Positions 4,301 through 59,812 of a stretch of DNA of 64,000 nucleotides are shown piece after piece. The position numbers and the translations under genes were made by a program. The notes under the pieces are model-generated. The model made no database searches, was not told the origin of the DNA, and saw nothing but the letters and a program-made list of their open reading frames with translations. Where the stretch lies: the NCBI GenBank assembly GCA_964016885.1, contig OZ024741.1, positions 43,152,001 through 43,216,000 of the forward strand, in the 5' to 3' direction. This DNA is from Eledone cirrhosa. Taxonomy: Eukaryota. The first letter of the stretch is position 1. Every line of letters starts with the position of its first letter.

Positions 4301-4866
4301 CACCTATGCAAAGTAAACAATTGACCACATTCTGAGAAATGGTATGAGCATAAGCCAGAGTCGGTGATAGAAAACGATCAGGTGAAGGTGCTGTAGGATT
4401 TTAGGATACAGACTGACAAGAAACTGGAACACAATAGAGCTGATCTGGTGGTTGTGGACAAAGAAAAAAGATCGTGTCTGATTGTGGTTGTGGCCTGCCC
4501 ATTCGACACGAGAGTGCAAGAGAAGGAGAGGGAGAAAATTAACCGATACCAGGACTTAAAGTGGGAGGTAAAAAGGATTTGGAACTGCCATGAAGTCAAA
4601 GTGATCCCGATTGTCACATGCGCACTAGGGACTATCTCAAAAAGTTTCCAGGGATGGTTAAAGAAAATTGGCCCCTTTACGCTTTTTGGAACGCTTCAAA
4701 AGGCATGCTTGCTGGGAACAGCAAGAACCATCCGATACGTCCTGAATATCTGAGGCTGCAGGTAGTGGCTTGATATTCATTACAACAAACTTTCCAGTTA
4801 ACTGACTGAGGTAGTGGCTTGATATTCATTTCAACAAACTTTCCAGTTAAATGACTGAGACTCAAA

Positions 4867-7900: not shown

Positions 7901-10900
7901 GTCTATGAAGTCTGTCTGTGTCGACCTCACAGATCACAAATTTGTGGTCTGTGTAGTCGACTATTTTAAATTGTGGACAACTTATACTGGCCTTATCTAG
8001 TTCCCTGCAGAATACCCTATCTAGATACGATCTGGATGACCCGATGCGGTTTGTCCATGTCCACATTGGCACATTCGGATGATCCAGTCCATACCTGTCA
8101 GACAGCTCAAAACGTCTGAGCAGGTTGGTGAGGCTCTTGCACCCTCCTCCACTATCCACTATCCCCACACGATCCCAGCGTGCATCCAAGATACCGTTCC
8201 AGTCGCTCACTAACACTAAAGAGCGGAACGTTCCAAGAAAGGTCTCTAGCCGTCTGAAGAAAACTGGCCGTCCTGCCCCTCTTGGGGCGTAGACGGCTAC
8301 TAGCCTGAAAGCATTGCCTTCGCTGCCGGTCACGTCCAGCACCACCGTCTCACCTCTGGGTCCAGGAAGTTGGCCCGTATCGCGAGATCCAAGCCTCTCG
8401 GAAAAGGACGGCAACCCCTCCCCCTGATCCTGGACGGCTGGGAGATGCGTATATATCGTAGCCGCCGAAGATCGGTGCGAAGGCCCGTGCCTCGGAGATT
8501 CTGGTTTCACTGATGGCCACCACATCTATGTTTAGTGACCTGAGGTCATTGAGCAGGTGACCCTGCTTCCAAGATGACCCCAGGCCACGTGCATTTATAC
8601 TGCCTATTCTGAGTACAGCCATGTTGGATGAGAAGCGGGGCTAATGAGAAAGGGTCACTTACCTTGTTCGTATGGTGAAGGGACAGTAGAACCGTCCCCT
8701 TCGCTGGTCATTGGTGTTTCCAAGAGGATGTCAGTGTATATCCTCTTGGTAGCCGCCCCTCTGAAGTCTCCAACCGCACTGGGGAATTTTTGTTTTAAAG
8801 GTTTGTACTGTTCTATTGAGATTTCGATGATGCTTATGTTTGTCGGGAGAGTTCTTGGTGTTGGTGGGGTGTAGTAGTTTTTTTCAGTGATGTCTGTGTG
8901 CAGCTTTATATATTTTATGAGTTCTTCTTTTGCTATGTTTATCGCTGTGTACTTTTTGGGGGGAGGGGTGATTTTTTGCCGTTTTCTTCTTGTTGCTGTT
9001 TGGTGTGTGTGTCTTGTTGTGTTTGCGTTGTTGGTGTTTCTGGTGGTGTTTCTGCAAGTTTCCTTGCTGCCTTTACCCCTCTTTGTATGCCTTCGCTTTT
9101 GGAGGGAGAATCTAAGGGTTTTTTTGTTTTTTTGTTTTTTGTGGCAGACTGTTTGCCACGTCACTCCCGCCTCAAACTCCATGTCGGATTCTTTGGCGTC
9201 TGGGAGGGGTATGTGCTCCAGGGCTGTTGGTGGTGGTAGTGGAGCCCTCTTCCGCAATTTTGTTGCTGGTGTAGCTATTTCAAATGTAGCTATTGGTGTT
9301 GCCGCTACTGATGATGCTGCTTTAGTTATCCGTGGCCTTGGTACGGGTGCTACGGACGTTGCCCTCCTACTCACCGTGGAAGGGCTTCTTCGTTTGTTGC
9401 CTGTCCTGCACTTGGTAGCAACGGACCAGGTATTGGAAGGAGAGGGGCCCTCTTCGATGTCTTCTGCGGGCAAAAGGCCCTGAGGTGACCTTTCGACCCA
9501 CAGAGATAACATTTTGGCCGTCTTCCTTCTACACTTATAGGGAGTTGGAGTCCTTCCTGGAAGTCTATGATATCGGGGATAGCCTCGATACATTCCTGGT
9601 CAGTTTGTATAAGCATTTGCATGCCTATACCTGACCAGTTCTCTCTCCCTATTTTTTCTACTACAGCATGGTCGCCCTGTTCTCAATTCCAGCAAGGACA
9701 GACGCGGACAGCCAAGGTATGGGCACGTTGGGTGGGACCTGGGTCACTTTGACCCTCACAATTTTCTGCCCGCAGTAGGAGAGCACCAAGACTAACTCCT
9801 CACTCTTTAGGGTTTCCAAAGAGTGAGACTTTGCTTCCTGGGGGGTGACGAAAAGTACGTCTACTGTGGCGTACTTTCTGCCTCGGGTGATGTGGGTTTT
9901 GCGTGCCCAGACGCACCCCAAGGCCTATTGGATTTGAGCTTCCGTGGCTCTCTCCACTCGATGTGAGATTTTGCTTACGGTGCGGTAAATCACCGTCCGT
10001 AGCTGCTGGTCCTTGAAAAATTCGGGTGGAGATTTCAGGGAAACTCTATTTGCACTTCTTGTCACCATGGCCCTTGCGACTGCCATCTCCTCCTCTGTGA
10101 CTAACACTGTCTCGATATTTTGGGCGACACCTGCAAAAGAAGTGGTCCCTTTTTCAGCAGCACCACTATTGCTCTCGCTACTGGTCTTACTGGTGGTGCT
10201 GAGAGGTCGCTATTACAGGTATCGGTGCCATTGTTGTTGTTTTCGCTGGTACAGTTGTTGGTGTTGTTGTTGTTGATACTGTTGCTGCTGTTACTGTTAT
10301 TGTGGCTGTTGTTATTATTGTTGTTTTTGTTGATACTATTCCTACTATTATTGTTGTTGTGGCTGGTGTTATTGTCGTTGTTATTGTCGTTCTCGACCTT
10401 ACCGCTGTTATTTTTGTTATTGTCGTTCTCGACCTTACCGTTGTTATTTTTGTTATTGTCGTTCTCGACTTTACCGCTGTTATTTTTGGTGTTGTTGTAG
10501 GTGATGTTGTTGGTGTTATTGTTGGTCTTGTTTGTGTTAGAAATATTTGGTAATTTTAATTCTGTAATAATCTTTTTTCCTTTGTAATATTTTCGTTTAC
10601 ATTTACCTCCGCTGGAACGCTGTCTTGTTGACATGCTATGCAGTCTCCCTCTCTCTGTGTTGTCTGACAGCGCTCTCTCTCTGTCTTGTGTTATCCATGT
10701 TGAAATTTTTCAAAAAAATATTTTTACACAAATACGAATATGACACCCCGTAAAGGAGTGCCGTATTATTTACTAGTGAACCCCTGTATTAGGTGGGTCA
10801 CTTCTTCTAAACTTTTATCAAATTTAAAACTTGAATAAAAGGTTTAGAACGGTTGAAAAAGAGGTAAAACGTTGAAAAAGACTGGAGGCGATAAGAAGCG

Positions 10901-10910
10901 TGGCTTCACC
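4931..10910 (-). mobile_element. Tx1/L1-clade LINE copy 1, apparently full length and degenerate (ORF1 ~10634-8655, ORF2 ~8622-5219)
   Basis: ORF1 zinc knuckle CYLCGSKGHLRAFCP. ORF2 APE motifs (IGSINARGL, AISETR, AVYAP, SYLDR, TDHK, GPGYWKLN), RT motifs (KSPGLDGL, LDQSKAFDR, GCPLSSLLY, AYADD) and C-terminal CPRC..ETVVHALVQC. Many frameshifts; (AAT)n on both sides. Confidence 0.92.
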
Positions 10911-10911
10911 A

Positions 10912-10913
10912 AC

Positions 10914-10951
<38 letters not shown>

Positions 10952-11098
10952 TTTCTTTATTAACCACAAGGGTTTAAATAAAGTAGACATTAAGGACAGT
11001 GCAGGACAATACAGGACGGTACAAATGGGCATTTCTGCATGTAAAAAACAAAAACAGTGGATGTAACAAAAAAATAACAATGCAAAATAATAATAATG
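10912..11098 (-). mobile_element. (AAT)n tract plus a ~135-bp 3'-end stub of a second Tx1 subfamily and a short (AAT)n
   Basis: 10950-11065 (tttctttattaaccacaagggttta..aagtagacattaaggacag..) nearly matches the 3' end of the copy at 55472. Confidence 0.85.
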
Positions 11099-14000
11099 AT
11101 TTCTTTATTGGCCACAAGGGCTGACATCAAGAAAAAACATTACAGACGCCACAGGACAGTACAGGACGATGTGGGTTTTGTGCGTGTAAAGATTTTTATT
11201 ATTTATATAAGAAAAGAAAAAGAAAAAGTCATAGAAACATATATATATATAAACAATAAAAATGAAAATTGAAACAATGAAAAGTTTCGTTTCGAAAACC
11301 ACACAAAAGACCACGGCCACCCTGACCACCAGGGCAAGCGCCCTCTCTCAATTTTTCCATTTCTCAAACTACAGGCGTATGTTCAGAGCGGTGCCGTTCA
11401 CTCGGACCATTAACGCTACATTCACCCACCTTTCAACAAACTTGCCAGAAGGCATCACTTGCCTCTCTACCCTGATTTTCCTCTTCAAGTGAAACTTGAA
11501 AAATTAATTAGGGATTCGCCGAAGAGGAAAGTGTCTGTCTTTAACCCTTTCAACCTTGTCCACCACACAATCTCTTACGCCATGGCCACCAGACAGATGA
11601 AAACCGCCTGCCCTTCCTCCTCGAAGGAAGACGGCGAGATCATCTGCACAATGGACTTAGCCAATAACCGGATCAGTCCTACACGCGACAGCAACTGTTC
11701 GACATAGGTCCACAAGTTAGCAATGCTCCGGCACTGAACGAGTGCGTGCACGATGGTTTCGTCGCTCTGCACGCATCTCGGACAGGCTCGGTTGACGGCA
11801 CTCCCGTGCATGTAGAGCTTATCTCGAACCGGCAACGCTCCCCGGTAGCACCGGCACGCCAGGGATTTTTTGCAGTATTTCATAGGCCCTGTGCTGAAAG
11901 TTCTCCGGAAAAGAGCAAACATGATCTTCTTCGACGCCCAGGATCTCTCCGAGAGGGTCGTCGCTCTTCCCCTACACTAGTCCTCTATAGCACGCCGAAG
12001 TGGATGTTCCACCGATACTGGTGCGTACCTGACAGAGGGCGGTGAGCGCCTGGAAACATTCCAGTTTCCAACCGCTATCTCTCGGTCTTTTCCTGACCCA
12101 GGACTGTAGCTCCGTCAAGGAGACGAGCTGTGGGAAAACGTGCCTGGCGAACGGCGACCACACCTGTTCACCACTACGGAAGCAACAGTGATGTACAGCC
12201 TCAGCGCATGTTTGCGCATCATCAGCCATGGCATGCCCAGTCCTCCACGCAACGGGTGTTGCCAGCAGATGGATCGTCTGACCATGGGAGCGCGTCCCTT
12301 CAACAAAAAGTGGAAGAGGGGGCGCTCCATGTTGGTGATAGTTGGGCCGGGGCAAGGGACGACGGTGCGGCGGTAGCAGATGACGGATTCGATGTAAGCA
12401 TTCGCCACCTCCACGCGGCCTTTCAGGGACAGCTTCCTCTCCGCACATTTCTGGGTGAGACAGGCCACCCTGCTCGTCACCTCGTTCCAGTGTTTCTCCA
12501 TCTGGAGGTCCGCTCCGAACCAGACCCCTAGCAATTTAACCGATCCGTCCGTCCAACGCCCCCACAACGTTTTCGGACGACATGGACTTGCCTCTACAGG
12601 TGCCGAGCTGCAAGCCCACTGACCTTTACTGGTTTATCTTTGCTCCTGTCACCGATTAATATTCCTTAAGAGCGGGGCCGAGCATCTGGACGTGTCTGGT
12701 GCTCGACACCGCCACCGTTACGTCGTCGGCGTAAACCGACTCGGATCTCCCGCATCCTAGTTTGAGTGGGATGCCCCTCATCGCCCCCAGTTTGTGCAGT
12801 AACGGCTCGAGAGCCAATACGTACAAGAGGGACGAGAGGGGACAACCCTGGCGGACTGTTCGCATGATATTGAACTGCTGCGACAGGTGACCGTTCACCC
12901 TCACAACTGAGCAGATGTCGCTGTATCTCGCAGCGATCCAACCCCTGAAAACCGTTACGAAACCGGCTGCCTCAAGGACCGCCGCCAGGTACCGGTGGTC
13001 GACCCTATCGAATGCTTTGGATTGATCCAAGTTGATCAGGGCCCCACCCGTGCCAGGTTTCCCTAACCAACTTCTCTACGACATATCGCATGAGGTGGAG
13101 GTTGTCGTGTGGATCTTTCCGGAATGGTGCATGTCTGCGCCTCTCCCACCGGACCCTCGACGACAAGCGCCACCTCGTTTCTAACACCTTGTCCAAAATC
13201 TTCGAACTCTGCGTTTAGCAGGTTTTGGGCCTGAAGTTATCGATAACATCCCGCTTGTTCAGGTCTTTTCTCAGCAGCGACACCGCTCCCCGGCTCACAC
13301 AACTGGGAATACTCCCGTTCTGCTGCCAGTTGCAGTAGACGTCTGCCAAGAGGTCACCGAAGAAGTTTGGCATAAATGCATAAAGCTCGTAGGGCAGACC
13401 ATCCAAACCTGGTGATTTACCCCTCGTGTACTCAGCCATCGCTTCCGGTATTTCACCGACTATTATTGGCTTTTTGCAACACCGTGCTGCGATCGTCGAG
13501 AGCCGAGGTAATCCGTAGAGGTATGCACTGAAGTCCATACCCCGATTCAGCTCGCCGCTGCTCCCGGACAGTTCAGCAAAGTGCTGCGGAAAGGCCTCAC
13601 ACATCTGCTCGGGTTCGAGCAACACGCGCCCGTTTTGGTCAGACAATACCGAATTGTGGTTTGTTGCCACGTCACGCCTCTGCCACCCGGGACCATTGGA
13701 TGGTTTTTGTCCCCTCGTGTTTCAGAGCACGCGCTCTAGCTCTGACAACGCTGTCTTCGTGTTTTGCGTTGAAGAATTGGTCGAGTGTCAATCTCGCCGC
13801 AAGCACGTCGGTTGCGATTCCTGTCCTAAACGCCTCTTCTAGCTTTCTGACTAGCTCTCCCTCTACTCCATTTTCTTCTATCAATAGTCCTTTGCTAAAC
13901 ATAATCGACTCTACTTTAATTGCCCTTTTCAGGGCGAACCACCACCTCTTGTTGATGATCGCTCCCGTCAACGCCCGCTTAACTAATACGCTAATCCGGT

Positions 14001-16950
14001 CTCTGTAGGCTTTTCGCGCCGGGAAAGACGCGTTCAGCTTCCAGTAACCAGGCCCTTGTCTATGAAGTCTGTCTATGTCGATCTCACAGATCACAAATTT
14101 GTGGTCCGTGTATTCGACAATTTTAAATTGTGGACAACTTATACTAGCGTTATCTAGTTCTCTGCAGAATGTCCTATCGAGATACGATCTGGATGACCCG
14201 ATGCGGTTTGTCCATGTCCACATTGGCACATTCAGGTGATCCAGTCGATACCTGTCAGACAGTTCAAAACGTCTGAGCAGGTTGGTGAGGTTCTTGCACC
14301 CTCCGCCCCTATCCACTCGGCTCACACAATCCCAGCGTGCATCCAAGATACCGTTCCAGTCGCCCACTAACACTAAATAGCTGGACGTTCCAAGAAAGAT
14401 ATGTAGACGTCTGAAGAAATCTGGCCGTCCTGCCCCTCTTGTGGCGTAGACGGCTACTAGCCTGAAAGCATTGCCTTCGCTACCGGTCACGTCCAGCACC
14501 ACCTACTTACCTTCTGGGTCTAGGAAGATGGCCCGTATGGCGAGAGCCAAGGCTCTCCGAAAAAGGACGCCCCCTCCCGATCCTGGACTGCTGGGTGATG
14601 CGGTTACATCGTAGCCACCGAAAGATCGGTGCGAAAGCTCGTGCTTCGGAGATTCTGGTCTCGCTGATGGCCACCACATCTATGTTTAGTTACCTGAGGT
14701 CGTTGAGCAGCTGACTCTGTTTCCAAGATGACTCCTAGTGTGGGGGTGCTGTGAATGTTTAGAGTATTGTATAGTCTTTTGCTGTGATGCTGGTGTTGTG
14801 TGGGATGTAGTGTAATAATTGGTTGTTCGAATTTAATGCTGTGTAGTGTGTATCGCTGTGTAGTTTGTTTCGCTCGTTGGTGATTTTTCTGGTGTTGGTG
14901 ATGGTGGTGTTGGGGTTAATGATGGTGATGCTGTTGGTGTTTGAGGTGATGGTGCTGGTGTGGCTGGTGACATAGCTGTCTTAACTTTTTTGTTAGTTTG
15001 TTTGTTTGATTCGCCCTGCATTTTGTTTTTGGAGGGCGAAGGAAGAGGAGTTTTTCTTTTTTGGTTTCTATCTTTTTTTTTCCAGATACAGTTTCCCACA
15101 ACTCCTCGTCGTCACAATATGTCTCCAGTTGTGAGAGGTCGGGAGTGGAAAATCCTCCAAAGGCGTTGCTTTTGGTTGTTGCGTGGTGGATGGTGGAGGC
15201 GCTAGTGCTAATTCTGGAGCGGTTGGCGGTGGTAGCGTTGGATATGCTACTGTTGCTGCTACAGTTGCTGGGGTTGTTGCTGCTACAGTTGTTGCTGTCA
15301 TTTCTGCTGCTAGTTTTGATTGTTGAGTGACTGGGGTGGCCAGCAGAGGTGGCCTCAACTCTTTAACCTGAGGGCTTCCTCCGCCACAAACAACACACCT
15401 TGGCATTCTACCCTCAACGATTACGGTGAGGTGGCTGCCGTCATTGAGGTCTATCACCTCTGGAATTTCCTGTATGTTTTTTGGGGTCCGTTTGGATCAG
15501 GACCTCCATCCCAGATCCGGACCAGCTCTCCTGCTTTACTTTTATCACCTCAATTACTTTAGTGTCGACCTCGATGTCGGCGAGGACGGCAGCCATTTGC
15601 TAGGGAATTTCAATGGCCGGCGGAACCTGGGTCACCCTGATCCTTACCAGCCTCTGACCACAATAGCTTCGGACAAGTGTGAACTCGTTACATTTTAATG
15701 AGGCCATGGAGTGCTCTATGGTTTCCTGCGGGGTACCAAAGAACACGTCGATGGTTCCATATTTTTGCCCACGTCTGATGTGGGTTTTTTAAGCCTCCAC
15801 ATGTCCCAAAGCTTTTTGTATCTGGGGCTCGGATACCCGTTCCACTCAGTGTATTTTAATGTTTATTGTGCGATACGACGCGGTGCATAGGCGCCGATGC
15901 TCCATGGTATTAGATGGGGGGGGGGGGCTGACCATGTAACCATACTTTCTTACCATTCGCTTGGCTCCATTAAATTCTTTCTGGCTAACTCAACCGTTTC
16001 ATTTTTTTTTGCCGCTTTAGCAAACGACACATTTGATTTTGCGCTGGTGTTGATGTTGTTATTCTTATTGTTGGTGTTGTTGTTGCTAAAAAAAATAAAT
16101 AATACTAATAATAAAGAAATAATAAAGAAAGCATTATTCTTAGTTTCGGGCGGTGAATTGGCAGTATTGGTAGAGGGTCGGATGCCATGCTTTGACGTAT
16201 AGAGTTACGCCCCTTCCCATTCTGAGTTCAAATCCCGCCGAGGTTAACTTTGCCTTTCATCCTTACGGGGTCGATAAAATAAAGTACCAGTAATACACTT
16301 GCTGGCCTTGTGCCAAAAGTAGAAACAATTATTATTTTTAGTTTCAGTTGTGGCGGTGTTGGTGGTGGTGTCTGTGGCGTTTGACGTGGAAGAGTCAATT
16401 TTTTGGAGAATCCATTTTGATATCACGAGATAATAATTTAATTTTTGTTTCAGTTGTTGCTGTAGTTGAGGTAGTGGTGGTTGTGGTGGTATCAGTGGTG
16501 TTGGTTGTTCATTTTGACATTGTGGTGGTGATTGTGGCGGTGATTGTGGCCGCTGTAGCCATTGGTAATGGCGGGAAATCAATGTCTGTATGTGACAAAT
16601 CTAAATAATTGCCACTGCTATTACTTATATTTTCAGTTTTGCCAACCATAGCAAGCTTTACAATGGTGGTGGTGGTGGGAGATGTTAGTCCGTTAGAAAA
16701 GCTATCAGAAGATTTTGGTAGCTGAATGCCGTCCATGTTTTTTTTTCAAAGAAATGTTTTGTTTGATAAATATAAAGTTTAAATTTTGGGCTCATGGCCC
16801 CAATATTATTGAGTGTCCTTTTCAGAAAGCAATATATGTGAACTTATAAACACTTAACAACAAACATTTTCCATAACTGTCAATTTGAAACAATTGAAAA
16901 CAACAAACCTTTGTGGAGCTCACGATAATACGATTTCCTACGTAGGTCGC
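11098..16950 (-). mobile_element. Tx1/L1-clade LINE copy 2, degenerate, with a deletion at the ORF1/ORF2 junction (~14737) and a SINE inserted in ORF1
   Basis: 3' end gatttctttattggccacaagggctgacatc is identical to copy 1. APE and RT ORFs at 13672-14502 and 12656-13030 (QSKAFDRVDH, QGCPLS, YADD). ORF1 remnants align with copy 1 (KTHIRRGQKYGTIDVFF vs KTHITRGRKYATVDVLF). (AAT)n at 16952; 5' boundary approximate. Confidence 0.88.
16149..16336 (+). mobile_element. tRNA-derived SINE, family A, full length with TSD
   Basis: A-box-like tggcagtattgg, B-box gagttcaaatccc, core gcctttcatccttacggggtcgataaaataaagtaccag, tail gaaacaattattatt. Imperfect TSD ttatt.ttagtttc on both sides; at least 8 copies in the window. 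Confidence 0.85.
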
Positions 16951-20889: not shown

Positions 20890-21509
20890 GATATTGTTAT
20901 ACATTGGGAGGGTCATATTGGCAATAAAATCACACGCACCTGTCGGATTCACTTCAATTGATTATAAATTTCCGGTTGGCTGGTTGTTTTGTTCGATAAC
21001 TTGATGGTTGTTTATATATTGTCAAAGCTCTTTCATCACACATTCTGTGACCTCCTCGGTGACTAGGCTTTTATTTTTTGTGTCTCTCCTCTATTCTGTC
21101 TTACACAATCTTGCTTTTATGTGTTGTGTGATGTGTGCTTATTTTACGCATGCGTTACATCCGTGTGTGTGTGTGTGTATTTATTTGTTTGTTTATTTAT
21201 ATATTTATGTGTACATTTACTTGTCACTTGTTGCTTGTTTGCTGTATCCGTGTGTGTCTGATTTGTTTTGTTAGTTTGGGCTTTGTGTGTCTGTATGTCT
21301 TCATTTTCTATTTAATTACTAGTCGTGATGTTGCTATTTCACTCAAGTATTTTGTTTAATTTTGGTTGGAGTTCGTTTATGTTTGTCGCTTCTGTAATTC
21401 GTCTGAGCATTGCAGCTTTCTCCTCTTTCAGTGTGTGTGTTTGTCTGAGGTTACGTGTGTGTCCTATTATATATATGTGTGCATGTGCATGTATGCATAT
21501 ATATATAAA

Positions 21510-21587
<78 letters not shown>

Positions 21588-23390
21588 ATGCTTTGGGAGG
21601 GTCATGTTGCCAATAATAAATACACGCACCAGCTGCATTCAATCCAATTTATTATAAATTAAATTTATAAATTTAAGAATTTATAAATTTCCGGTTGGTT
21701 GGTTCCATAACCGGACGGTTGTTCATATATTGTCAAAGTTCTTTCGTCACACATTCAGTGACTGGGATTCTTTTCTTTGTTTTTGTGCTTCTCCTTTGTT
21801 CTGTCCTACGCCATCTTGTTTTTGTGTGTGTTGTGTGTTTAGTTTTCGCATGTGTTACATCCGGGTGTCTGTGTGTGTTTATATTTGTTTATTTATTTGT
21901 TTTTTTACATGTTACTGGTTGATTGTTTGTTCTATGTGTGTGTGTGTTTTCATTTTGTCCTTAATTGTAAGTTGTGATGTTGCTATTCCATTCATGTTTT
22001 CTATTTAATTTTGGTTGGAGTTCATTTATGTTTATCGCCTCTGTGATTTATCTAAACATTGCGTGTGTAGATTCTATTTTTATTTCTATGTTCTCTAATT
22101 TGCCCTTATGTTATATTTTAGCATGTTGGTGGAGGACAGATGATTCTTTTCTATCTTGAAGCTCTCGCCAGTGTTCATTTAACCGTCCTCCTATACTACC
22201 AGCTGTCTCACGTATTTACACTATATTCTTATCTCTACATTGTCCTTCAGTACATATTATGCTATATACTACATTTCTAGTTTTACAGTTAATATGGGGG
22301 CTTAGTTTACAGATTATACATTTCTCATCTATACAGGGAGTTCTTTGAAAAGGGTATGTATTGCTAATAAGTGTTTTTATAGAGACACCTGGTCTTTCTA
22401 CTATCTTAATATTAAGTTTATGTTTATCTAGGGCCCGTCTAAATTTGTAAGCTAATTCACCTCTAGGTGTTGCATTGATGAACATTACAATCTGGTATTT
22501 ATTGCTATCATACCATGAGTTCATTCTATTAACCTTATTCTTAGTTCTTTCTATTCTATTCCAAAATGTGCTCCTATACAAGGGGCAGGTCTCATTTGTA
22601 TCATTATTTACCATTTTTTCCCATTTGGTTCTGGCTCCTCTATATACTCTGATTTTATCTCTCTGATTGTAGCCAGAGAACTGCATACGGCGGATAAAGT
22701 GTTGTATGTGTCTCTCTAGTTCTTTGGGGTTGAACATGCGGTACACGTTTCTCATCACCCGTACCAAATCCGCAATCACTACGTTGATTTTGGTGTGATC
22801 CGAAACAGCTGAGTTTCGGTGGATCAGATATTTGGAAGTCATGGGTTTGGCATAATGGGAATGGAGGATTTGTTTTTTTTTATTAATGGTTTCTAACCAG
22901 AGCTCTATGTCTAGGACATGTAATCGATGGTTGGGGTGTTTGCTTGGGTAGTCTATAGTAAATCTAATTCTCTGGTGGATGGAGTTAGCTATTTGCTGGA
23001 TGCTTTCCATGGTGCTTTTCTCTAATTCCTGACTGTTCTCTAGTGGGGGTGTTTTTACTACGATGTTTATCTACGATGTTTACTACGATAATCATCAACG
23101 TAGCGGGAGTGCATTATCAGGGTTAAGAGGTTGCTGTCTTCTAATTGTTCTTTAAGTTTAAGTTTAAATCTATTGTCCCACCATACCATGAATAGGTTAG
23201 CTATGTCACCTGCAATGCTAACACCAATGGTTGCTCTTGGGCATATGTTTTTCCATTAAACTTGAACATGTTCCTTAACGGTTAATTTTATACTGGCCCC
23301 CACCGCATGTGCAATCATTTTCTTTAGTTCATCCTGGTTTTCGTCATCAGATAAAGAATCTTGCTAAACAAATTCAGAAACGAAATATAT
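20890..23390 (-). mobile_element. Penelope-like element, 5'-truncated: RT thumb and GIY-YIG remnant (~22100-23340) with two tandem pLTR/3' UTR copies (21585-22060, 20890-21415)
   Basis: Minus ORF 22216-23010 has IRFTIDYP..LHVLDI..HYAKPMTS..HRNSA, CIDEKCIICK and NVVYSIIC, continuing *IRETAGSIGGRLNEH (GIY-YIG). The YVDD-like motif near 23100 is decayed. The repeats are separated by (TA)n. Confidence 0.85.
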
Positions 23391-23486
23391 ATATACGTAG
23401 GTCCCGGGTTGAGTCGGGGATAACCACAGTAAGTAAGGTACTCAATACATGGCAGAGTAAAAAAATTTTTTTTATTTTATAGAAGG

Positions 23487-23537
23487 AGCTTCTACAGGAC
23501 GAGTACTGTTTCATTCAGATGAAATCTTCAGGAAGCT
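23487..23537 (-). ncRNA. Type I hammerhead ribozyme motif (family H1)
   Basis: Reverse complement AGCTTC CTGAAGA TTTCATCTGAAT GAAA CAG TACTCGTC CTG TA GAAGCT: 6-bp stem I, canonical core, GUA site. Confidence 0.85.
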
Positions 23538-24728
23538 GGGTGTCATATTAAGTTCTGGTATTTATACATTTAGGTAGTGGTAAGGGAGGGGTGGTGGATG
23601 GGGGGGGGGGGGAATGGTATTTAGATACACAGGACCACTTCATGGCACAGGCCGTTTTTTCTTTGGGGAGTGGTCAATTAGCCAGATCACCTACCTTACT
23701 ATAGCCCCACGCCCACCCAGGAAGAATAGGCGAAGGCACATTAGCTGGTACAACCCCCCCTTCAACCGAGAAGTTTCAACACCTGTAGCTAAAATTTTCT
23801 TCACTCTCTTACAAAAACACTTTCCCACCCAACATAGCTATTATACTATCCTTAATAAGAATACCATTAGACTCTCTTACTCTACTACACCTAATCTAGC
23901 TAGAAACTTAGCCAACAACAACTAAGAAGCTAAATAAGTCTACTTTTTCCGAAGCCCATCCAGCAACCGATAGCAACTGCAATTGCCATCATAAGACGAC
24001 CTGCCCTCTCAACAACAACTGTCTAAAAAAAGATCTCGTCTATATATGCGATGTACTCTCAGGCCCCGATGAAAAAAGAAACTCGTAGATCGGGATGACA
24101 TCTAATAGTTTTAAGACTCGCTGGTACACCCACACACATTCGTTCCGGCGCCCAGACAAATCTAACCAAACTACACTCGCCGCCCACATCTGGCACCTTA
24201 AAAGGAACTCCATCCCCTTCAAGACCCAATGGAGACTACTCCAGAGAGCGGCGATCATACACGGGAGGCCATAATTGCTGTGACCTCTGTATCTCCGAGA
24301 GCTATGAGATTCTATTCGCCAAAGGCCCTCTCCTCAACAAGATCTCGGAACACTCCTTTAATTGCATGCACAAGAACTATGCAAATTACAAAAACTACAG
24401 ACCCACCCGGCCCCTCAACTGACCCCCCCCCCATATCACCCCCTCACCCCCGCCCCCCATCCCATTCCCGTCCCTCGATCTCTCATTATTACCCTCTTTC
24501 CTCCCCTCTATCTCTCATTATTACCTTCTTTCCTCCCCTCCAGGTCTTATATATTGTGTTGTATGCCTCTGAGTAAAGTTCCGTGGCCGCACACACAAAT
24601 TCACGTATATACCTGCTCATGTTTGCATACGTGCAGTTTTGAACTGCAGCACGCACACGTTCGTGATTTATTTATCTATTTATCTGTATATTTATTTATT
24701 TATTTATTTATTTAGTTACTTTATTTAC

Positions 24729-24775
<47 letters not shown>

Positions 24776-25204
24776 CTTATTTACTGGTTTATTTGTTTAT
24801 CTGTTTGTTTGTTTGTTTGTTATTTAACTCATTCATTTATTTATTAATTTATGAGTGAATGATTAGGTAATGAATAGATAAAAGATAAAAGATAGGTAAC
24901 GAATAGTGAATGGTAAATAGTAAATAATAAATAGTAATGATGATAATATTAATAACTTAGTAGTGATATTAATTATTTTAATCCTCTATCAGGCCCAGTT
25001 TAAAATTTAAAATTTAAAATTTGTCCCACTACCATTATATTATAGACACATGTATGAGTTCGAACGAGTGCATGTTTGTGCATATGCGTTTATGTGTACA
25101 TATTTGTATGTATGTATGTGTATGTATGCGTGTGTGCTTGTACATGTGTATGTGTATGTATGCGTGTGTGCTTGTACATGTGTATGTGTGTGTATGTATA
25201 TAGG

Positions 25205-25380
25205 TATATATATATATATATATATAAAAATCGGACCGAGGGAACAGTGTTTCCGTTGGTCTTTCCAATTGCTAATACTATCTATCGGTCGCAACTCCAG
25301 GTAGAAGGAGCAACGTGAAATAAAATGTCTTGCTCAAGGACATAACGCATCGCCTGGTCCAGGAATCGAACTCACAACCT
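25205..25380 (-). mobile_element. CORE-type tRNA-derived SINE (family B), 5'-truncated
   Basis: Reverse complement gagttcgattcc B-box and gttatgtccttgagcaagacattttatttcacgttg; matches 32140-32355. Confidence 0.75.
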
Positions 25381-25409
25381 TATATATATATATATATATA
25401 TATATAGAG

Positions 25410-25455
<46 letters not shown>

Positions 25456-25456
<1 letters not shown>

Positions 25457-25560
25457 CCCGCCGAGGTTGACTTTGCCTTTCATCCTTACGGGGTCGATAA
25501 AATAAAGTACCAGTGAGGCACTGGATAGTTGCTGGCCTTGTGCCTAAAGTAGAAACAATT
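25456..25560 (+). mobile_element. SINE family A, 5'-truncated
   Basis: Matches 16233-16330. Confidence 0.85.
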
Positions 25561-25958
25561 ATATATGTATGTGTGTGTGTATGTGTATATATGTATATAT
25601 ATGTGTGAATGTATGTGTTTGGTTGTGTGTGTGAGTATGTATGTGTATGTATGTGTGTGCATATGTATGTATGTGTATGTATAGTATAGTTTATACCGAG
25701 AGACATACGTACATGTGGGTGTGTATATATATATATATATATGTGTGTATACATATATATATATATATATGTGTATGTGGATGCGCACGTGTGTATGTGT
25801 AGATATATATATGTGTGTGTATGTGTATGCGTGTGTGTGTGTGTATTTGTGTGTTTGTGTTTTTCTTGTGTATATATGTATATATGTGTATGTATGTATG
25901 TGTGTGTGTGGGTATATGTATGTGTGTGTATGTTTATGTGTATACGCACACACAAATA

Positions 25959-25995
<37 letters not shown>

Positions 25996-26048
25996 GTTTG
26001 AATGTGTAGGTGGGCACACACATATATGTTTATATATATATATATATG

Positions 26049-26148
<100 letters not shown>

Positions 26149-26641
26149 TATATATGTGTGTGTAAGTGTTTTCGTATGTGGTTGTGAGTATGTAAATATA
26201 TTTTATTCTTTCAATTCTACAAAAACACTCTGGCCACCTGTGGCTTGTATGTTAACTTGACCACTCACCTCAGTCTGTGCCATGATTCGGTCTTGTTAAA
26301 TGTTTAATTTCTATTACCAACCCACCTAAAAAGTTTCCCTACTATATATCTGTTGAATTACTATTCTTGGGGTTTTTATTTATTTATTTATTTTTATTTA
26401 TTTTCTTTCTTTATTTATTCTTTTATCTATTTATTCATTTATTTATTTATTTACTTATTTATTTATTTATTTCAAATAAGCACTCTGGCTAATTGACCAC
26501 TCCCCAAAGAAAAAACCGCCTGTGCCATGAAGTGGTCCTGTGTATCTAAATACCATCCCACCCCCAACTATCCCCCCCCCATCCACCCCCCTCCCTTACC
26601 ACTACCTAAATGTATAAATACCAGAACTTAATATGACACCC

Positions 26642-26692
26642 AGCTTCCTGAAGATTTCATCTGAATGAAACAGTACTAGTCCTGTAGAATCT
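26642..26692 (+). ncRNA. Type I hammerhead ribozyme motif (family H1, sense pLTR copy)
   Basis: AGCTTC CTGAAGA TTTCATCTGAAT GAAA CAG TACTAGTC CTG TA GAATCT; AATAAA about 10 nt downstream. Confidence 0.8.
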
Positions 26693-26728
26693 CCTTCTAT
26701 GAAATAAAAAAAAATATATATATATATT

Positions 26729-27229: not shown

Positions 27230-30962
<3,733 letters not shown>

Positions 30963-36359: not shown

Positions 36360-36710
36360 AATGCGCAAGCTAAGCACACAACACACACACAAAAACAAGA
36401 TGGCGTAGGACAGAACAAAGGAGAGGCACAAAAAACAAAGAAAAGAATCCCCAGTCACTGAAGAGGTCACAGAATGTGTGACGAAAGAACTTTGACAATA
36501 GATAAACAACCATCTGATTGTGCAACCAACCAACCAACTGGAAATTTATAAATTCCTAAATTTATAAATTTATTATAATAAATTGAAGTGAAAGCAGATG
36601 GTGCATGTGTTTCTTATTGGCAACATGACCCTCCCAAAGTATAACACTATCGGTTTCAACACACGTTTTCAGATAAAGAATCTTGCTAAACAAATTCAGA
36701 AACGAAATAT
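36360..36710 (+). mobile_element. Solo pLTR of the Penelope family at 20890-23390
   Basis: Reverse complement of 21585-21850. Ends in cagataaagaatcttgctaaacaaattcagaaacgaaa(TA)n, identical to 23348-23390. Confidence 0.85.
36454..36496 (+). ncRNA. Minimal type I hammerhead ribozyme motif (family H4)
   Basis: GTCA CTGAAGA G GTCACA GAATG TGTGAC GAAA GAAC TT TGAC. Decayed homologues at 21021-21063 and 21732-21762 (-). Confidence 0.7.
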
Positions 36711-40292: not shown

Positions 40293-40355
<63 letters not shown>

Positions 40356-40358
<3 letters not shown>

Positions 40359-40553
40359 TTTATCCCGGCTTCAATCGGGGGAAACCACAGATAGTAAGGT
40401 ATTCAATACAAAGCAGAGTATAAATATTTAATATAGAAAAGCTTCTACAGGACTAGAAGTGTTTCATTCGTGAGAAATCATCACGAAGCGCTTCCTGATG
40501 ATTTCACACGAATGAAACAGTTCTAGTCCTGTAGAAGCTTTTCTATATTAAAT
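40356..40553. mobile_element. ~200-bp non-autonomous PLE derivative: tail plus a 128-bp palindrome of two back-to-back hammerheads
   Basis: Palindrome 40426-40553 centred on gaagc|gcttc; tail homologous to 23400-23460; flanked by (TA)n. Confidence 0.85.
40490..40538 (+). ncRNA. Type I hammerhead ribozyme motif (H1-related)
   Basis: GCTTC CTGATGA TTTCACACGAAT GAAA CAG TTCTAGTC CTG TA GAAGC. The mirror copy at 40441-40489 (-) has a C3>G change. Confidence 0.85.
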
Positions 40554-41164
40554 GTATATATATATATATACTCCTTATTCATTGTATATACCTCCTTATT
40601 CATTATATATATATATATAAGGTCATTATTACAGGCGAGAATTTGTCGGATCTAATATGATCACCACCTAGGGATGTCGTATAGCGTTAGCATATATTAT
40701 GGTTAACACAAATTCTTAAAGATGCATAACCACCATGAAAGCAATGGAAATCAGACAAGGCGGCGCGATCAATTACGTTTCTATTACAACAGCGTTGAAT
40801 ACAAAATACAACTCGCTATACATGTAAATTAAATATATAAAGTTAAGATGTCTTGTAGGGAAGAATATGTAATAAAGGAGAATACTAATATTACCAAGGC
40901 GAGATTCATATAGATTTATAATGCAATCCATTACTTTCGTAACAAAGCCGTATCTCATAATGTGGCGTAATGCATTTGCAGTAAGGATGGTTTTACTTTC
41001 ATATTTAGATATATTGCAATGGATTTTGTCGATTCAGAACGTATACATATATATGTAATATATATATATTTATATATATATTTTTTTTCTCAAGCGTTAA
41101 CCCAATATATTCCTTCCATATACTGTGCCGATTGTGTTGTTATTTCTGTTTACCTTTTACATAC

Positions 41165-41218
<54 letters not shown>

Positions 41219-41220
<2 letters not shown>

Positions 41221-41395
41221 CGAAGGAAATGTGGTAAGGAACCAGGTGGACCATAACGCACCAAAGTACTCAATACTTGAGGTAGTAGAGTGGGTAATAG
41301 GAACCAGTAAGACCCCGACAGCTGAGCTCAAGCCGTTTCGACGGCGAATTAGCCGTCGAAACGGCTTGAGCTCAGCTGTCGGGGTCTTACTGGTT

Positions 41396-41400
<5 letters not shown>
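41219..41400. mobile_element. Mini foldback element (family H5): tail plus a perfect ~52-bp-arm palindrome containing hammerhead 3' halves
   Basis: ataggaaccagtaagaccccgacagctgagctcaagccgtttcgacggc/gaatta/reverse complement; GAAA CGGC TTGAGCTCA GCTG TC. Relatives at 45168-45266 and 48298-48418. Confidence 0.8.
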
Positions 41401-55473: not shown

Positions 55474-58250
55474 TTTTCTTTATTAACCACAAGGGTTTAG
55501 ATAAAGTAGACATTAAGGACAGTACAGGACAATACAGGACGGTACAAATGGGCATTTCTGCGTGTAAAAAACAGAGGATGTAATAAAATAACAAAGATAA
55601 ATTCCCCAATAGGGGGGAGCGTTCCGAGGGACATTCGTGGAGAAAGCCCATTTTAAAGCAACAGTGACCCTGACCACCAGGGCAAGTGCCCTCTCCCAGT
55701 TTTCCACCTTTAATTTACAGACACATACTCAGAGTAGGCCCATTCACTCGGGCCATTCTTCCCTCTCTCACCCATCTTTCAACAAAATGCTGGGAAGAGA
55801 GCACTTCCCTTTCTACCCTGATTTTCCTTTTCAAATGAAATTTGAAAAAGTTAATCAGGGCATCACCGAAGAGTAAAGTGCTCGTCTTCAGCCCTTTCAA
55901 ACGTGTCAACCATACTATCTCTTTCGCCATGGCCACCAGACAGATAAAAACTGCCCGCGCTTCCCGGTTAAAGAAAGAGGGTGGGGCAATCCTCACGATG
56001 GACTCAGTTGATAGCTGGATCCGTCCTACACGCGAATAGCAGGTGTTCGAGATAAACCACAAGTCAGCAAAGCTCGGTCACTGGACGATTGCGTGCAGGA
56101 CGGTTTCGTCGCCCAGCACATCTCGGACATGCCCGGCTGACGGCACCTCCATGCCTGTAGAGTTTATCCCGAACTGGCAAAGCTCCTCGGTAGCACTGCC
56201 AGGCCAGGGATTTCTGGAAGTTATCCATAGGCCCTGGCTCGAAAGTTCTTCCGAAGAGATTGGCTAGTTGATTTTCGTCGACGCCTAGAGTTTCCCCAAG
56301 TACGTCGTCGCTCTTCCCCTCCACTAATCCTCTATAGAACGCCAATGTGGAGTTTCCACCGATCACATTGCCCGATTGGTCGAGGGCTGTGAGCGCCTGA
56401 AGACATTCCAGTCTCCAAGCGCTCCCTCTCGGTCTTCGCTTGACCGTGGACTACAGCTCCGTCAAGGAGACGAGATGGGGAAAGACGCCTCTAGCAAACG
56501 GCGACCACACCTGATCACCGTCGAGGAAGAGGAGGAGATTTCTTAGCCTGAGCGCGTGTCTGCGCATCATCAGCCACGGCATTCCCAGCCCTCCACGTAG
56601 CGGGTGTTGACAGCAGATGGACCGCCTGACTATCGGAGTGCATCCCTTCCACAAAAAGCGAAAGAGCAAACGCTCCAGCGCAGTCAGACGAGGCTTAGAA
56701 CAAGGCACGACGGTCAGGCGGTAGTAGATGACGGACACGATGTACGCGATAGCCACCTCCGCTCGTTCTTTCAGGGATAGCTTCCTCTCCGCCCATTTCT
56801 GGGTGAGAGAAGCCAACCTGCTCGTCACCTCGTCCCAGTTTTGTCCGTCTGTAGATCTGGACCGAACCAGAACGCTAGCAATTTAATCTGTCCATCCGTC
56901 CAGTGCGTGACGACGCTGTTGGACGGCATGGACCTGCCTCTCCGGGTGCCGAGCTGCAGGCTCACCGACTTTTCCTGGTTGATCATTGCTCCTGTCACCG
57001 CTTCGTATTCTCTTAGTGTAGTGCCAATTGCCTCGATGTGTTTGGCGTTCGACACCACTACAGTGACATCGTCTGCATATGCTGACACGCATCTTCCGCA
57101 TCCTATTTCGCGCGGGACCCCCCTCATCGTCTCCAGTTTGTGCAGTAATGGCTCCAGAGTCAATACGTACAAGAGGGACGAGAGGGGAAATCCTTGGCGG
57201 ACCGAGCGCATGATGTTGAACGGTTCAAAAGGTGACCGTTCACTCTCTCCACAGAGCAGATGTCGCTGTTCATGGCAGCGATCCAGCCTCTGAAGACGGG
57301 CCCAAAACCAGCCGCCCTCAGGACTACCGCTAGATAACGATGGTCGACCCTATCGAAAGGTTTCGACTGATCTAAATGATCAAGGACCCACCCGTGCCAG
57401 CTTAGAACAAGGCACGACGGTCAGGCGGTAGTAGATGACGGACACGATGTACGCGATAGCCACCTACGCTCGATCTTTCAGGGATAGCTTCCTCTCCGCC
57501 CATTTCTGGGTGAGAGAAGCCAACCTGCTCGTCACCTCGTCCCAGTTTTGTCCGTATGTAGGTCTGGACCGAACCAGAACGCTAGCAATTTAATCTGTCC
57601 ATCCGTCCAGTGCGTGACGACGCTGTTGGACGGCATGGACCTGCCTCTCCGGGTGCCGAGCTGCAGGCCCACCGACTTTTCCTGGTTGATCATTGCTCCT
57701 GTCACCGCTTCGTATTCTCTTAGTGTAGTGCCAATTGCCTCGATGTGTTTGGCGTTCGACACCACTACGGTGACATCGTCCGCATATGCTGACACGGATC
57801 TTCCGCATCCTATTTCGCGCGGGACCCCCCTCAACGTCTCCAGTTTGTGCAGTAATGGCTCCAGAGTCAATACGTACAAGAGGGACGAGAGGGGAAATCC
57901 TTGGCGGACCGAGCGCATGATGTTGAACGGTTCAAAAGGTGACCCTTCACTCTCATGTGATGTCGCTGTTCATGGCAGCGATCCAGCCTCTGAAGACGAG
58001 CCCAAAACCAGCCGCCCTCAGGACTACCGCTAGATAACGATGGTCGACCCTATCGAAAGGTTTCGACTGATCTAAATGATCAAGGACCCACCCGTGCCAA
58101 CTTCCCTAGCTCCCCTCTCCACAATGTATCGCATAAGGTGGAGGTTGTCGTGGATGGATCTATCGGGAATGGCGCATGTCTGCGCCTCTCCCACCAAACC
58201 ACCAACGACAAGTGCCAACCTTTTTGCTAGCACCTTGGCCAAAATCCTTC
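55428..58250 (-). mobile_element. (AAT)n tract (55428-55472) plus Tx1/L1-clade LINE copy 3, 5'-truncated within RT, with a 707-bp internal tandem duplication
   Basis: QGFPLSSLLY, AYADD, KSLAWQCYRGALPVRDKL. Segment 56693-57399 is repeated at 57400-58099. Confidence 0.92.
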
Positions 58251-58560
58251 TATATTAATCACAAGTGTTGACGTAAAATATAACTTTAAGGAGAGCATAG
58301 GACAATACTGGTCGGTACAAATCAGTATTTCTCCGTGTAAAAAAACCCCCAATCCAAAGCTATATGTATAAAAAAGAAAGAAGGAAAAATTCCCCAATAG
58401 GGTCATGGAGAAAGCCCACAAAAAAGCCACGGTTAACCAGGTCGCTAAGGCAAACGCCCTCTTTCAGTCTTCACCTTACGATACTACAGGCACACGTTCA
58501 GAGCAGGCCCATTTACACGGGCCATACTAGCCTCTCACTCCCACCATTGAACAAGGTGGG
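58250..58560 (-). mobile_element. 3'-end stub of another Tx1 subfamily
   Basis: tattaatcacaag..ggacaatactggtcggtacaaat..aattccccaatagggg resembles the 3' UTRs at 55480 and 4935. Confidence 0.75.
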
Positions 58561-59812
58561 TGACAGAGGCAAATGTTATTAATAATATTAATTGTGGAAT
58601 TTTTCAGGGTGACTCTTTATCACCGCTTTTATTCTGCATCGCACTTATATCATTAAGTAAAATGCTCAATGAAACAAAACATGGATATAAAGTCTATGAC
58701 AAAACCATTAATCACTTGTTCTACATGGATGACCTGAATCTCTTTGCAAAAATTGATAAGTTCAGTGATGATATTAAAATGGTATTTGGACTAGATAAAT
58801 GCACCAAAGCCATGTTCCACCGAGGAAAGCTGCTGAGAAGTTCAGACATTAACCTTGATCGGGCGAATGTGATAAGAGAACTTGATCAAGAAAAAACTTA
58901 CAAATATCTAGGTGTTTGTGAAGGAGTCGGAATCAAGCACACGACAATGAGGGAAAGGATAAAGAAAGGAATGTTACCGCAGAGTAAGAGAAATCTTAAG
59001 AAGGGAATTGAATGCCAGGAATAGGATCGATACCATAAACACGCTTGCCATAGCAGTAGTAACCTACAGTTACAATGTCATCAACTGGTCAAGCACAGAG
59101 ATCCGTAGGCTCGATATAAAAATTAGAAATGTCTTAACCATGCACAGAATGCATCACCCTAAGGCAGATACAGATAGAATATATCTCCCTAGGAAAGAAG
59201 GTGGATGTGGATTAATCTAGTCAGATATATCTTTGAAAACTGCAACAATTGGATTATCTACATATCTAAGGGAAGCATGTGATTGGATGATCAAACTCGT
59301 TTTGAACATGAAAGCAACAAAAGATTATACTCCATTACAAAAGATGCACATAGATACAATATTTGAGAAGTTCCATTTACTGCTGAAATGGAAAACACAG
59401 AAAAAGCAAAGCAGGTAAAAGTAACTGCAAAGAAAGAACTGCTCCAGAAACTGGCTAAGAAATGGCAAGAAAAGCCTCTGTATTGAAAATACCCAGAAAG
59501 AGCTAGCAATCCTGATGTTGACAAAACTTTAACCCATCAGTGGTTGGCATCCTCTGGACTGAAATCGGGGCTGAAAGACTGATTATATCAGCACAAGATC
59601 AGTGTCTGCCAATAAAAGATTATCAAGCCAACCTAATAAAAAATGGATGCAACCCATTATGGCTTGTATGTAAAAAACAACCAGAGACCATTGACCATAT
59701 AATTTCAATGTGCAGTCCTATAGTTCCAACGGAATACATAAAAAGGCACGACAGAGCTTCACAATACATACATTAGTTAATGTGTAAGTATTTTGACCTG
59801 CCCCATATGGGA
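58560..59812 (+). mobile_element. R4/Dong-like retrotransposon fragment (second family), degenerate
   Basis: GIFQGDSLSPLLF, HLFYMDDL, YKYLG, HHPKADTDRIYLPRKEGG, SAQDQ, ETIDHIISMC, RHD; interrupted at 59812 by (TA)n and a PLE derivative. Confidence 0.88.

What the first reader, a model, noticed from the sequence alone, without database searches (positions are those of the whole stretch)
40356..40553. Minimal ~200-bp element that is essentially two back-to-back hammerheads forming a palindrome
Seen: a 128-bp palindrome whose centre lies exactly at the 5' edge of stem I, so each strand encodes one HHR (the + copy is intact, the - copy has C3>G). It is preceded by a 70-bp tail homologous to the tail of the coding PLE at 23400 and is bounded by (TA)n. 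Inference: either the smallest outcome of PLE 5' truncation plus inversion, or a self-propagating ribozyme MITE. A ribozyme in both polarities of a rod-like RNA is reminiscent of viroid-like architecture, although the long hairpin would compete with the active fold.
Basis: partly seen in the sequence, partly recalled or inferred. Interest (0 to 1): 0.75.

Follow-up and report, generated by a model that had tools for sequence, protein, structure and literature searches.

The report
Mirror-image Penelope retrotransposon leader stub
This 198-base mirror-image repeat is one of thousands of stubs of a Penelope-type jumping gene in this genome, and each was likely built on landing by copying the front end of the element's RNA twice, once from each cut DNA strand, which would explain how these elements make their inverted ends.

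Summary
The palindrome is real, but it is neither a one-off nor, on this evidence, a self-propagating ribozyme MITE. It is the first ~135 nt of the mRNA leader of a Hydra-type Penelope-like element (PLE), joined head-to-head to an inverted copy of the first ~65 nt, inserted in (TA)n. The genome holds 3,684 such head-to-head sites. Junctions vary: 30 kinds in the first 50, and the ancestral form of this window's junction occurs at only 18 sites. Both arms share the same subfamily variants. Arms stop at a point 30 nt behind a TATA box, often with an extra G, and one arm is long, one short. The likely mechanism is priming from both target strands at two internal sites on one capped, uncut RNA, run-off at the cap, and joining of the cDNA ends. 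The architecture (inverted pLTR plus tail) is published; I did not find this mechanism in print. The minus-strand hammerhead has two lesions and the hairpin outcompetes the ribozyme fold. No RNA data were available. The scan already noted the same kind of stub in other genomes.

The parts
40297..40355 (.). (TA)n target, tail side
   Evidence: same flank in most copies
40356..40489 (-). Long arm: PLE mRNA leader from +2 to about +135 (hammerhead plus tail), likely the cDNA primed at the outer initiation site
   Evidence: 76% to window 23402-23536; 85% to L222, whose leader runs on into the ORF start; 89% to TATA-bearing L334
40356..40425 (-). 70-nt one-sided tail between the two inferred initiation sites; ends in a predicted stem-loop
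   Evidence: tail 27-mer at 13,430 sites
40441..40489 (-). Hammerhead motif, minus copy, with C3>G (40484) and a stem III break (40459); predicted inactive
40490..40553 (+). Short arm: leader +2 to about +65, likely the cDNA primed at the inner site from the other target strand
   Evidence: short arms end at model column <=86 in 101 of 103 pairs
40490..40538 (+). Hammerhead motif, plus copy, core intact; U.U at the base of a 3-bp stem II; predicted cut after 40533
40485..40494 (.). Head-to-head junction, both arms starting at +2
40554..40570 (.). (TA)n target, short-arm side
23402..23686 (-). Related PLE insertion, inverted end: 3' UTR end, TATA (23566), hammerhead, full tail
23700..26713 (+). 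Related PLE insertion, main arm: frameshifted RT end and GIY-YIG (to about 24420), long 3' UTR, TATA 26613, +1 at 26642, hammerhead, ends at the short site; same anatomy at larger scale

Best explanation
The element is a stub of a Hydra-type Penelope-like retrotransposon, made of the first ~135 nt of the element's mRNA leader joined head-to-head to an inverted copy of its first ~65 nt, and it was likely built at the moment of insertion by two reverse-transcription events on one capped, uncut RNA. Steps: (1) Pol II starts 30 nt behind the pLTR TATA box, at the first base of hammerhead stem I (inferred from spacing, hard stop and extra G). (2) The PLE protein cuts both strands of (TA)n (target shown; cutting inferred from PMC11167929). 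(3) One 3' end primes at about +135, the other at about +65 (two end classes shown; priming inferred). (4) Both cDNAs run towards the cap and often copy it as an extra base (inferred). (5) Their 3' ends are joined by microhomology or short filler, so junctions differ (variation shown; repair route inferred). The stub has no TATA box and is likely a dead-end product. Long PLE insertions arise when priming occurs on the downstream pLTR copy of a read-through transcript (inferred).
For: Family: 39 of 39 other scored candidates match 175-198 nt at 88-93%; 3,684 head-to-head sites, control 0. Made anew: 30 distinct spacers in the first 50 sites, counted by hand; the ancestral form of this window's junction at 18 sites, in several subfamily backgrounds; arm-to-arm mismatch at subfamily-diagnostic columns 11.9% against 49.4% for shuffled partners, minimum 41% (78 of 98 pairs usable); loop-2 variant shared in 20 of 21 young pairs against 8.5 expected, maximum 17 in 10,000 shuffles. 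Two start sites: long arm ends at column >=120 in 95 of 103 pairs, short arm at <=86 in 101 of 103. Fixed 5' end: of 88 tail-anchored loci 17 run >80 nt upstream, 3 stop at about -4 to -15, 68 stop within about 3 nt of +1 or inside the leader (four loci re-read by eye). TATA to +1 is 29-32 nt in 41 of 51 long arms; base -1 is C in 49 of 51 long arms but G in 19 of 28 stub arms not abutting the other arm (16 of 25 after dropping three doubtful rows, p 4e-5 against 0.25). Parent: TATA, hammerhead, tail, then ATG and ORF in L327; the tail runs on into the ORF in L326, L222, L245 and L324; protein has RWR, DKT, CxCx5C, CxxC and CxH as described for Hydra. Against snap-back: the short arm reaches >=10 nt further 5' than the long arm in 9 of 49 and 8 of 46 pairs, the reverse in 3 and 4. 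A PLE protein cuts and extends both strands and starts at two internal sites that bound the tail (PMC11167929).
Against: The start site and cap are inferred from DNA only. The extra G could be untemplated addition by the RT. 32 further stub-type arms were uninformative for it. No copy of this window's own tail type was seen to continue into an ORF (0 of 19 sites), so its exact source element is not identified. Mismatch at diagnostic columns (11.9%) is twice the background (5.9%), which leaves room for a minority of two-RNA events or for CpG and homopolymer mutation. L190 has two full-length arms, and 8 of 103 pairs have no full-length arm. D. virilis Penelope uses a TATA-less internal promoter (PMC2377424 passages), so stubs keeping promoter activity is not excluded. 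Samples come mostly from the first 55 Mb of contig C1, and L001-L030 were picked by likeness to the window copy.
Confidence: 0.75

Rival explanations
1. Snap-back: one cDNA runs to the RNA 5' end, folds back and copies itself up to about +65, or self-priming happens on an antisense template as proposed in PMC3846280.
For: Arms share variants, which snap-back also predicts. A common junction type could form by fold-back over 2 bp.
Against: The short arm often holds 5' sequence that the long arm lacks (17 of 95 pairs by >=10 nt). Several long arms stop at about +45 to +80, near the inner site. The extra G points to a sense, capped template.
Confidence: 0.1
2. A self-propagating hammerhead MITE or retrozyme-like element: palindromic stubs are transcribed and re-inserted as units by the PLE protein.
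For: Very high copy number; some junctions recur; L190 looks like a perfect MITE; non-autonomous PLE derivatives exist (PMC8557442 passages; bioRxiv 10.64898/2026.07.22.740005 abstract).
Against: Junction diversity. The apparent arm asymmetry of this copy is a rare variant (42 sites) found on either arm and in many backgrounds. No tandem monomers, no TATA, and the hairpin blocks the ribozyme fold. Arm-to-arm background divergence (5.9%) nearly equals copy-to-copy divergence (6.5%).
Confidence: 0.07
3. Double priming as in the best explanation, but usually on two RNA molecules held by a protein or hammerhead dimer from one active source locus.
For: Loop 3 can pair with itself (-12.8 kcal/mol duplex); the PLE protein is predicted to be a dimer (PMC11167929); a few pairs differ at recurring variants (L007, L008, L013); L190 has two long arms.
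Against: 20 of 21 young pairs are concordant although two variants are about equally common. Long arms that stall near the inner site suggest collision on one RNA.
Confidence: 0.08

Closest known systems
Insertion architecture of EN+ PLEs: inverted 5'-truncated pLTR copy plus a one-sided tail (PMC8557442 Fig. 2 legend and text; PMC3846280 Pen2a_Av)
   Same: Head-to-head inverted copy, tail on one side, (TA)n target, hammerhead in the pLTR
   Different: No ORF or 3' UTR between the ends; tail is about 70 nt, not 30-40; 5' end fixed at the inferred start site
PAc in vitro reaction (PMC11167929)
   Same: Two internal RT start sites bounding the tail, both strands cut and extended, uncut hammerhead RNA used as template
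   Different: That paper does not derive the inverted structure from double priming in the parts I read (2 of 4). Here the long arm joins (TA)n at a TA of the leader, and the hammerhead lies in the 5' leader before the ATG
Hydra clade PLEs (PMC8557442 section 11)
   Same: Parent protein motifs, hammerhead, (TA)n insertion
   Different: Parent has a 3' UTR of over 2 kb, so it is about 5 kb, against 'generally <3 kb'; no tree was built
Dual minimal hammerheads on opposite strands 100-700 bp apart in Schistosoma mansoni (PMC4209133)
   Same: Two PLE hammerheads on opposite strands, close together
   Different: Noted there in one sentence without mechanism; here stem II is 3 bp closed by U.U, not G10.1-C11.1
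Non-LTR retrozymes (bioRxiv 10.64898/2026.07.22.740005; PMC7229834 listing only)
   Same: Short, non-coding, type I hammerhead, derived from PLE pLTR
   Different: Retrozymes are head-to-tail tandems; these are single head-to-head units
L1 twin priming (recalled, not read)
   Same: Second target strand primes internally and gives an inversion
   Different: In L1 the inverted part is not a duplicate; here both cDNAs usually copy the same 5' end

Membership tests
EN+ PLE insertion | Sequence belongs to the pLTR of an RT plus GIY-YIG element | tested here: met
   85% to ORF-linked leader L222, 76% to the window PLE end; exact source of this subfamily not found
EN+ PLE insertion | Inverted 5'-truncated copy with a tail at one end | tested here: met
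EN+ PLE insertion | Target-site duplication | tested here: inconclusive
   Flanks are (TA)n; none discernible
Hydra clade (parent) | RWK-like, DKT, CxCx5C linker, CxxC and CxH motifs, no CCHH, (TA)n target, hammerhead | tested here: met
   754-aa frame in L329 and others, read by eye against PMC8557442; RWR in place of RWK; Pfam gave no hit
Hydra clade (parent) | RT phylogenetic placement | not tested
   No reference sequences in hand
Type I hammerhead ribozyme | Conserved core and three stems with covariation | tested here: met
   Stem I pair 1 A-T 30, G-C 18; pair 3 C-G 26, A-T 20, in 56 TATA-preceded arms (some preceded by target TA only); loop 2 variable, stems constant
Type I hammerhead ribozyme | G10.1-C11.1 closing pair of stem II | tested here: not met
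   U.U in the great majority of 290 parsed arms; no Rfam hit
Type I hammerhead ribozyme | Self-cleavage | not testable with these tools
   Only 2-3 of 88 long arms begin at the predicted cut, and these are ambiguous
MITE | Uniform copies with the same terminal inverted repeats and the same interior, moved by a DNA transposase | tested here: not met
   Asymmetric ends and variable junctions
Non-LTR retrozyme | Head-to-tail tandem monomers, each with a hammerhead | tested here: not met
   No tandem monomer arrays among the loci read
Viroid-like RNA | Circular RNA with active ribozymes in both polarities | tested here: not met
   Minus copy has two lesions and the hairpin excludes the fold; circular RNA not testable

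The most novel reading that the evidence does not exclude
These stubs are a fossil record of the whole PLE integration reaction: one capped mRNA leader, with its hammerhead uncut, is read twice from the two ends of a double-strand cut, and this single mechanism makes the inverted pLTR and the one-sided tail of all EN+ Penelope-like elements; the hammerhead sits exactly at +1 and serves mainly as a leader scaffold or a protein-gated switch, not as a routine processing site.
Probability: 0.5. Interest if true: 0.7.

Novelty: new variant of a known kind. Interest (0 to 1): 0.5.

Why it matters
How PLEs make their inverted ends and tail is named as an open question in PMC8557442, and PMC3846280 proposed antisense self-priming. 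Thousands of minimal insertions in one genome give position-resolved tests, favour double priming on a sense, capped RNA, and define a 135-nt template for a direct in vitro test. They also warn that repeat pipelines can mistake such stubs for MITEs or viroid-like ribozyme pairs. If transcribed, several thousand near-perfect 64-bp hairpins would be double-stranded RNA substrates (untested).

Tried and rejected
Rfam scan: no hammerhead family, only microsatellite noise. Sequencing runs: no RNA holder listed; three contig sets of one sample were laid and only confirm many family variants. Palindromic master marked by this copy's arm asymmetry: rejected. Splice junction as the fixed 5' end (suggested by the D. 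virilis case in PMC4209133): unlikely, since some subfamilies lack AG there and solo stubs abut target TA with no shared upstream exon. Hammerhead cut as the fixed end: rejected, the stop is about 45 nt upstream of the cut. Search for the ORF-linked source of this subfamily: none in 19 sites. L032 flank translation: no ORF. Pfam on the parent ORF: no hit. Literature searches gave no paper on cap-marked double-primed PLE stubs; PMC5785218 was not held; PMC11371274 was irrelevant. No supplements were read; those of PMC8557442 may list this family, and Repbase and Dfam could not be searched.

Full report
Observation. The 198-nt element sits between (TA)n runs. Its last 128 nt are a loopless palindrome with 3 mismatches that folds far better than shuffles (z -16.6). 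The + arm has a type I hammerhead layout with an intact core. The minus arm has C3>G and a broken stem III pair. Rfam does not detect it, and the usual G10.1-C11.1 pair is replaced by U.U. Stem I covaries across subfamilies and loop 2 varies freely while the stems stay fixed, so the fold is real in the parent. In the palindrome the hairpin (-100.5) beats the best fold that keeps the hammerhead (-44.5).

It is a family. In the window's genome 39 of 39 other scored candidates match nearly the whole element at 88-93%. A hammerhead 29-mer occurs 8,412 times, a tail 27-mer 13,430 times, and head-to-head cores at most 12 nt apart at 3,684 sites with 0 in the control. In 88 tail-anchored loci (90 of the first 100 listed were fetched; 2 duplicates dropped; five of those skipped were inverted pairs already held), 51 have an inverted arm by script and 53 after re-reading two by eye.

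What the sequence is. Longer copies continue upstream into a C-rich 3' UTR with a TATA box. In L327 a TATA box, the hammerhead and the tail precede an ATG and a PLE ORF, and in L326, L222, L245 and L324 the tail also runs on into that ORF. The protein has the motifs given for the Hydra clade. The element is therefore the start of the mRNA leader. The window holds a larger insertion of a related subfamily with the same anatomy: main arm 23700-26713 ending at the short site, inverted arm 23686-23402 carrying the tail. No ORF-linked copy of this window's own tail type was found; the nearest TATA-bearing arm is 89% identical and the ORF-linked L222 leader 85%.

The palindrome is made at each insertion. 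The first 50 sites show 30 different spacers, none like the window's; the ancestral form of that junction (C3 intact on both arms) occurs at 18 sites, in several subfamilies. Arms of one insertion share subfamily variants: 11.9% mismatch against 49.4% for shuffled partners (78 of 98 pairs), and 20 of 21 young pairs share the loop-2 variant against 8.5 expected (the exception is a parse across the junction). Elsewhere the arms differ from each other almost as much as copies do (5.9% against 6.5%), as expected for decay after insertion. The one variant that looked arm-specific is rare and falls on either arm.

Ends. One arm ends near +135 and the other near +65 (95 and 101 of 103 pairs). The long arm joins (TA)n at a TA of the leader. 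The 5' ends pile up at one place: 17 of 88 run far upstream, 3 stop just upstream, 68 stop at about +1 or inside the leader. In the first 100 of 1,909 arms intact to this point about 35 run on into the parent and about 65 stop within a few bases (by hand). The point lies 29-32 nt behind the TATA box in 41 of 51 long arms. The base before it is C in 49 of 51 long arms but G in 19 of 28 informative stubs, 16 of 25 after dropping L255, L202 and L226. An extra G from a copied cap is known from L1 (recalled, not read). Few arms start at the predicted ribozyme cut (2-3 of 88, ambiguous), so the templates were mostly uncut.

Mechanism. PMC11167929 (parts 1-2 of 4 read) shows a PLE protein cutting and extending both target strands, starting at two internal sites that bound the tail, on uncut RNA. 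Applied to the 5' copy of the leader this gives two run-off cDNAs of about 135 and 65 nt, and joining their 3' ends gives this element. Snap-back or antisense self-priming (PMC3846280 discussion) predicts that the short arm holds nothing the long arm lacks; it does so by >=10 nt in 9 of 49 and 8 of 46 pairs, against 3 and 4 the other way (the 49 values were copied by hand). Several long arms stall near the inner site, which fits two primers on one RNA. Against my reading: no RNA evidence, mismatch at diagnostic columns twice background, one two-long-arm palindrome (L190), and a TATA-less internal promoter in D. virilis Penelope (PMC2377424 passages).

Comparison. The inverted copy and one-sided tail are published PLE features (PMC8557442 passages and section 11; PMC3846280 abstract, passages and discussion). 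Close opposite-strand hammerheads were noted in S. mansoni (PMC4209133 parts 1-2 of 4). Retrozymes are tandem (bioRxiv 10.64898/2026.07.22.740005 part 1 of 5; PMC6765202 passages). A repeat annotation of an octopus genome does not mention hammerheads or palindromes (PMC13282606 passages); the host of this window is not established. Searches found no paper describing cap-marked double-primed stubs; supplements and repeat databases were not seen. The scan's own notes hold 228 findings with these words in at least 31 genomes, several with the same model. My reading was stated before that look-up, and those notes are not evidence.

Verdict. Real, very abundant, a dead-end minimal PLE insertion. 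Known architecture, informative about an unresolved mechanism. Interest 0.5.

Noticed in passing
window 20900-23390 (-): A second PLE of another type (RT end, CxxC linker, GIY-YIG) with a partial tandem copy and its own hammerhead type; a fuller copy of that hammerhead lies at 36450 (+).
   Followed up: partly
window 27824-29200 (+): Fragment of another PLE with the same CxC linker and GIY-YIG type as the parent, frameshifted.
   Followed up: no
L190 (G000:C2:39950174): Palindrome with two full-length arms, about 270 bp, that looks like a perfect MITE.
   Followed up: partly
L076-L079, L081, L085, L088, L123, L125, L132, L135, L136, L141, L146, L151 (contig C1): At least 15 near-identical copies of one locus carrying a short solo stub; a larger repeated unit has spread it.
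   Followed up: no
window 41220-41400: A short repeat that recurs beside many stubs in other loci, probably another (TA)n-targeting element.
   Followed up: no
window 1444-4324, 5400-14500, 56800-59000: Decayed non-LTR retrotransposon ORFs (RTE-like and L1/Tx1-like by eye; labels recalled).
   Followed up: no
L216-L325: A younger subfamily with a compensatory change in stem I makes the same stubs and dominates the start of contig C1; it would be the best source for an intact protein.
   Followed up: partly
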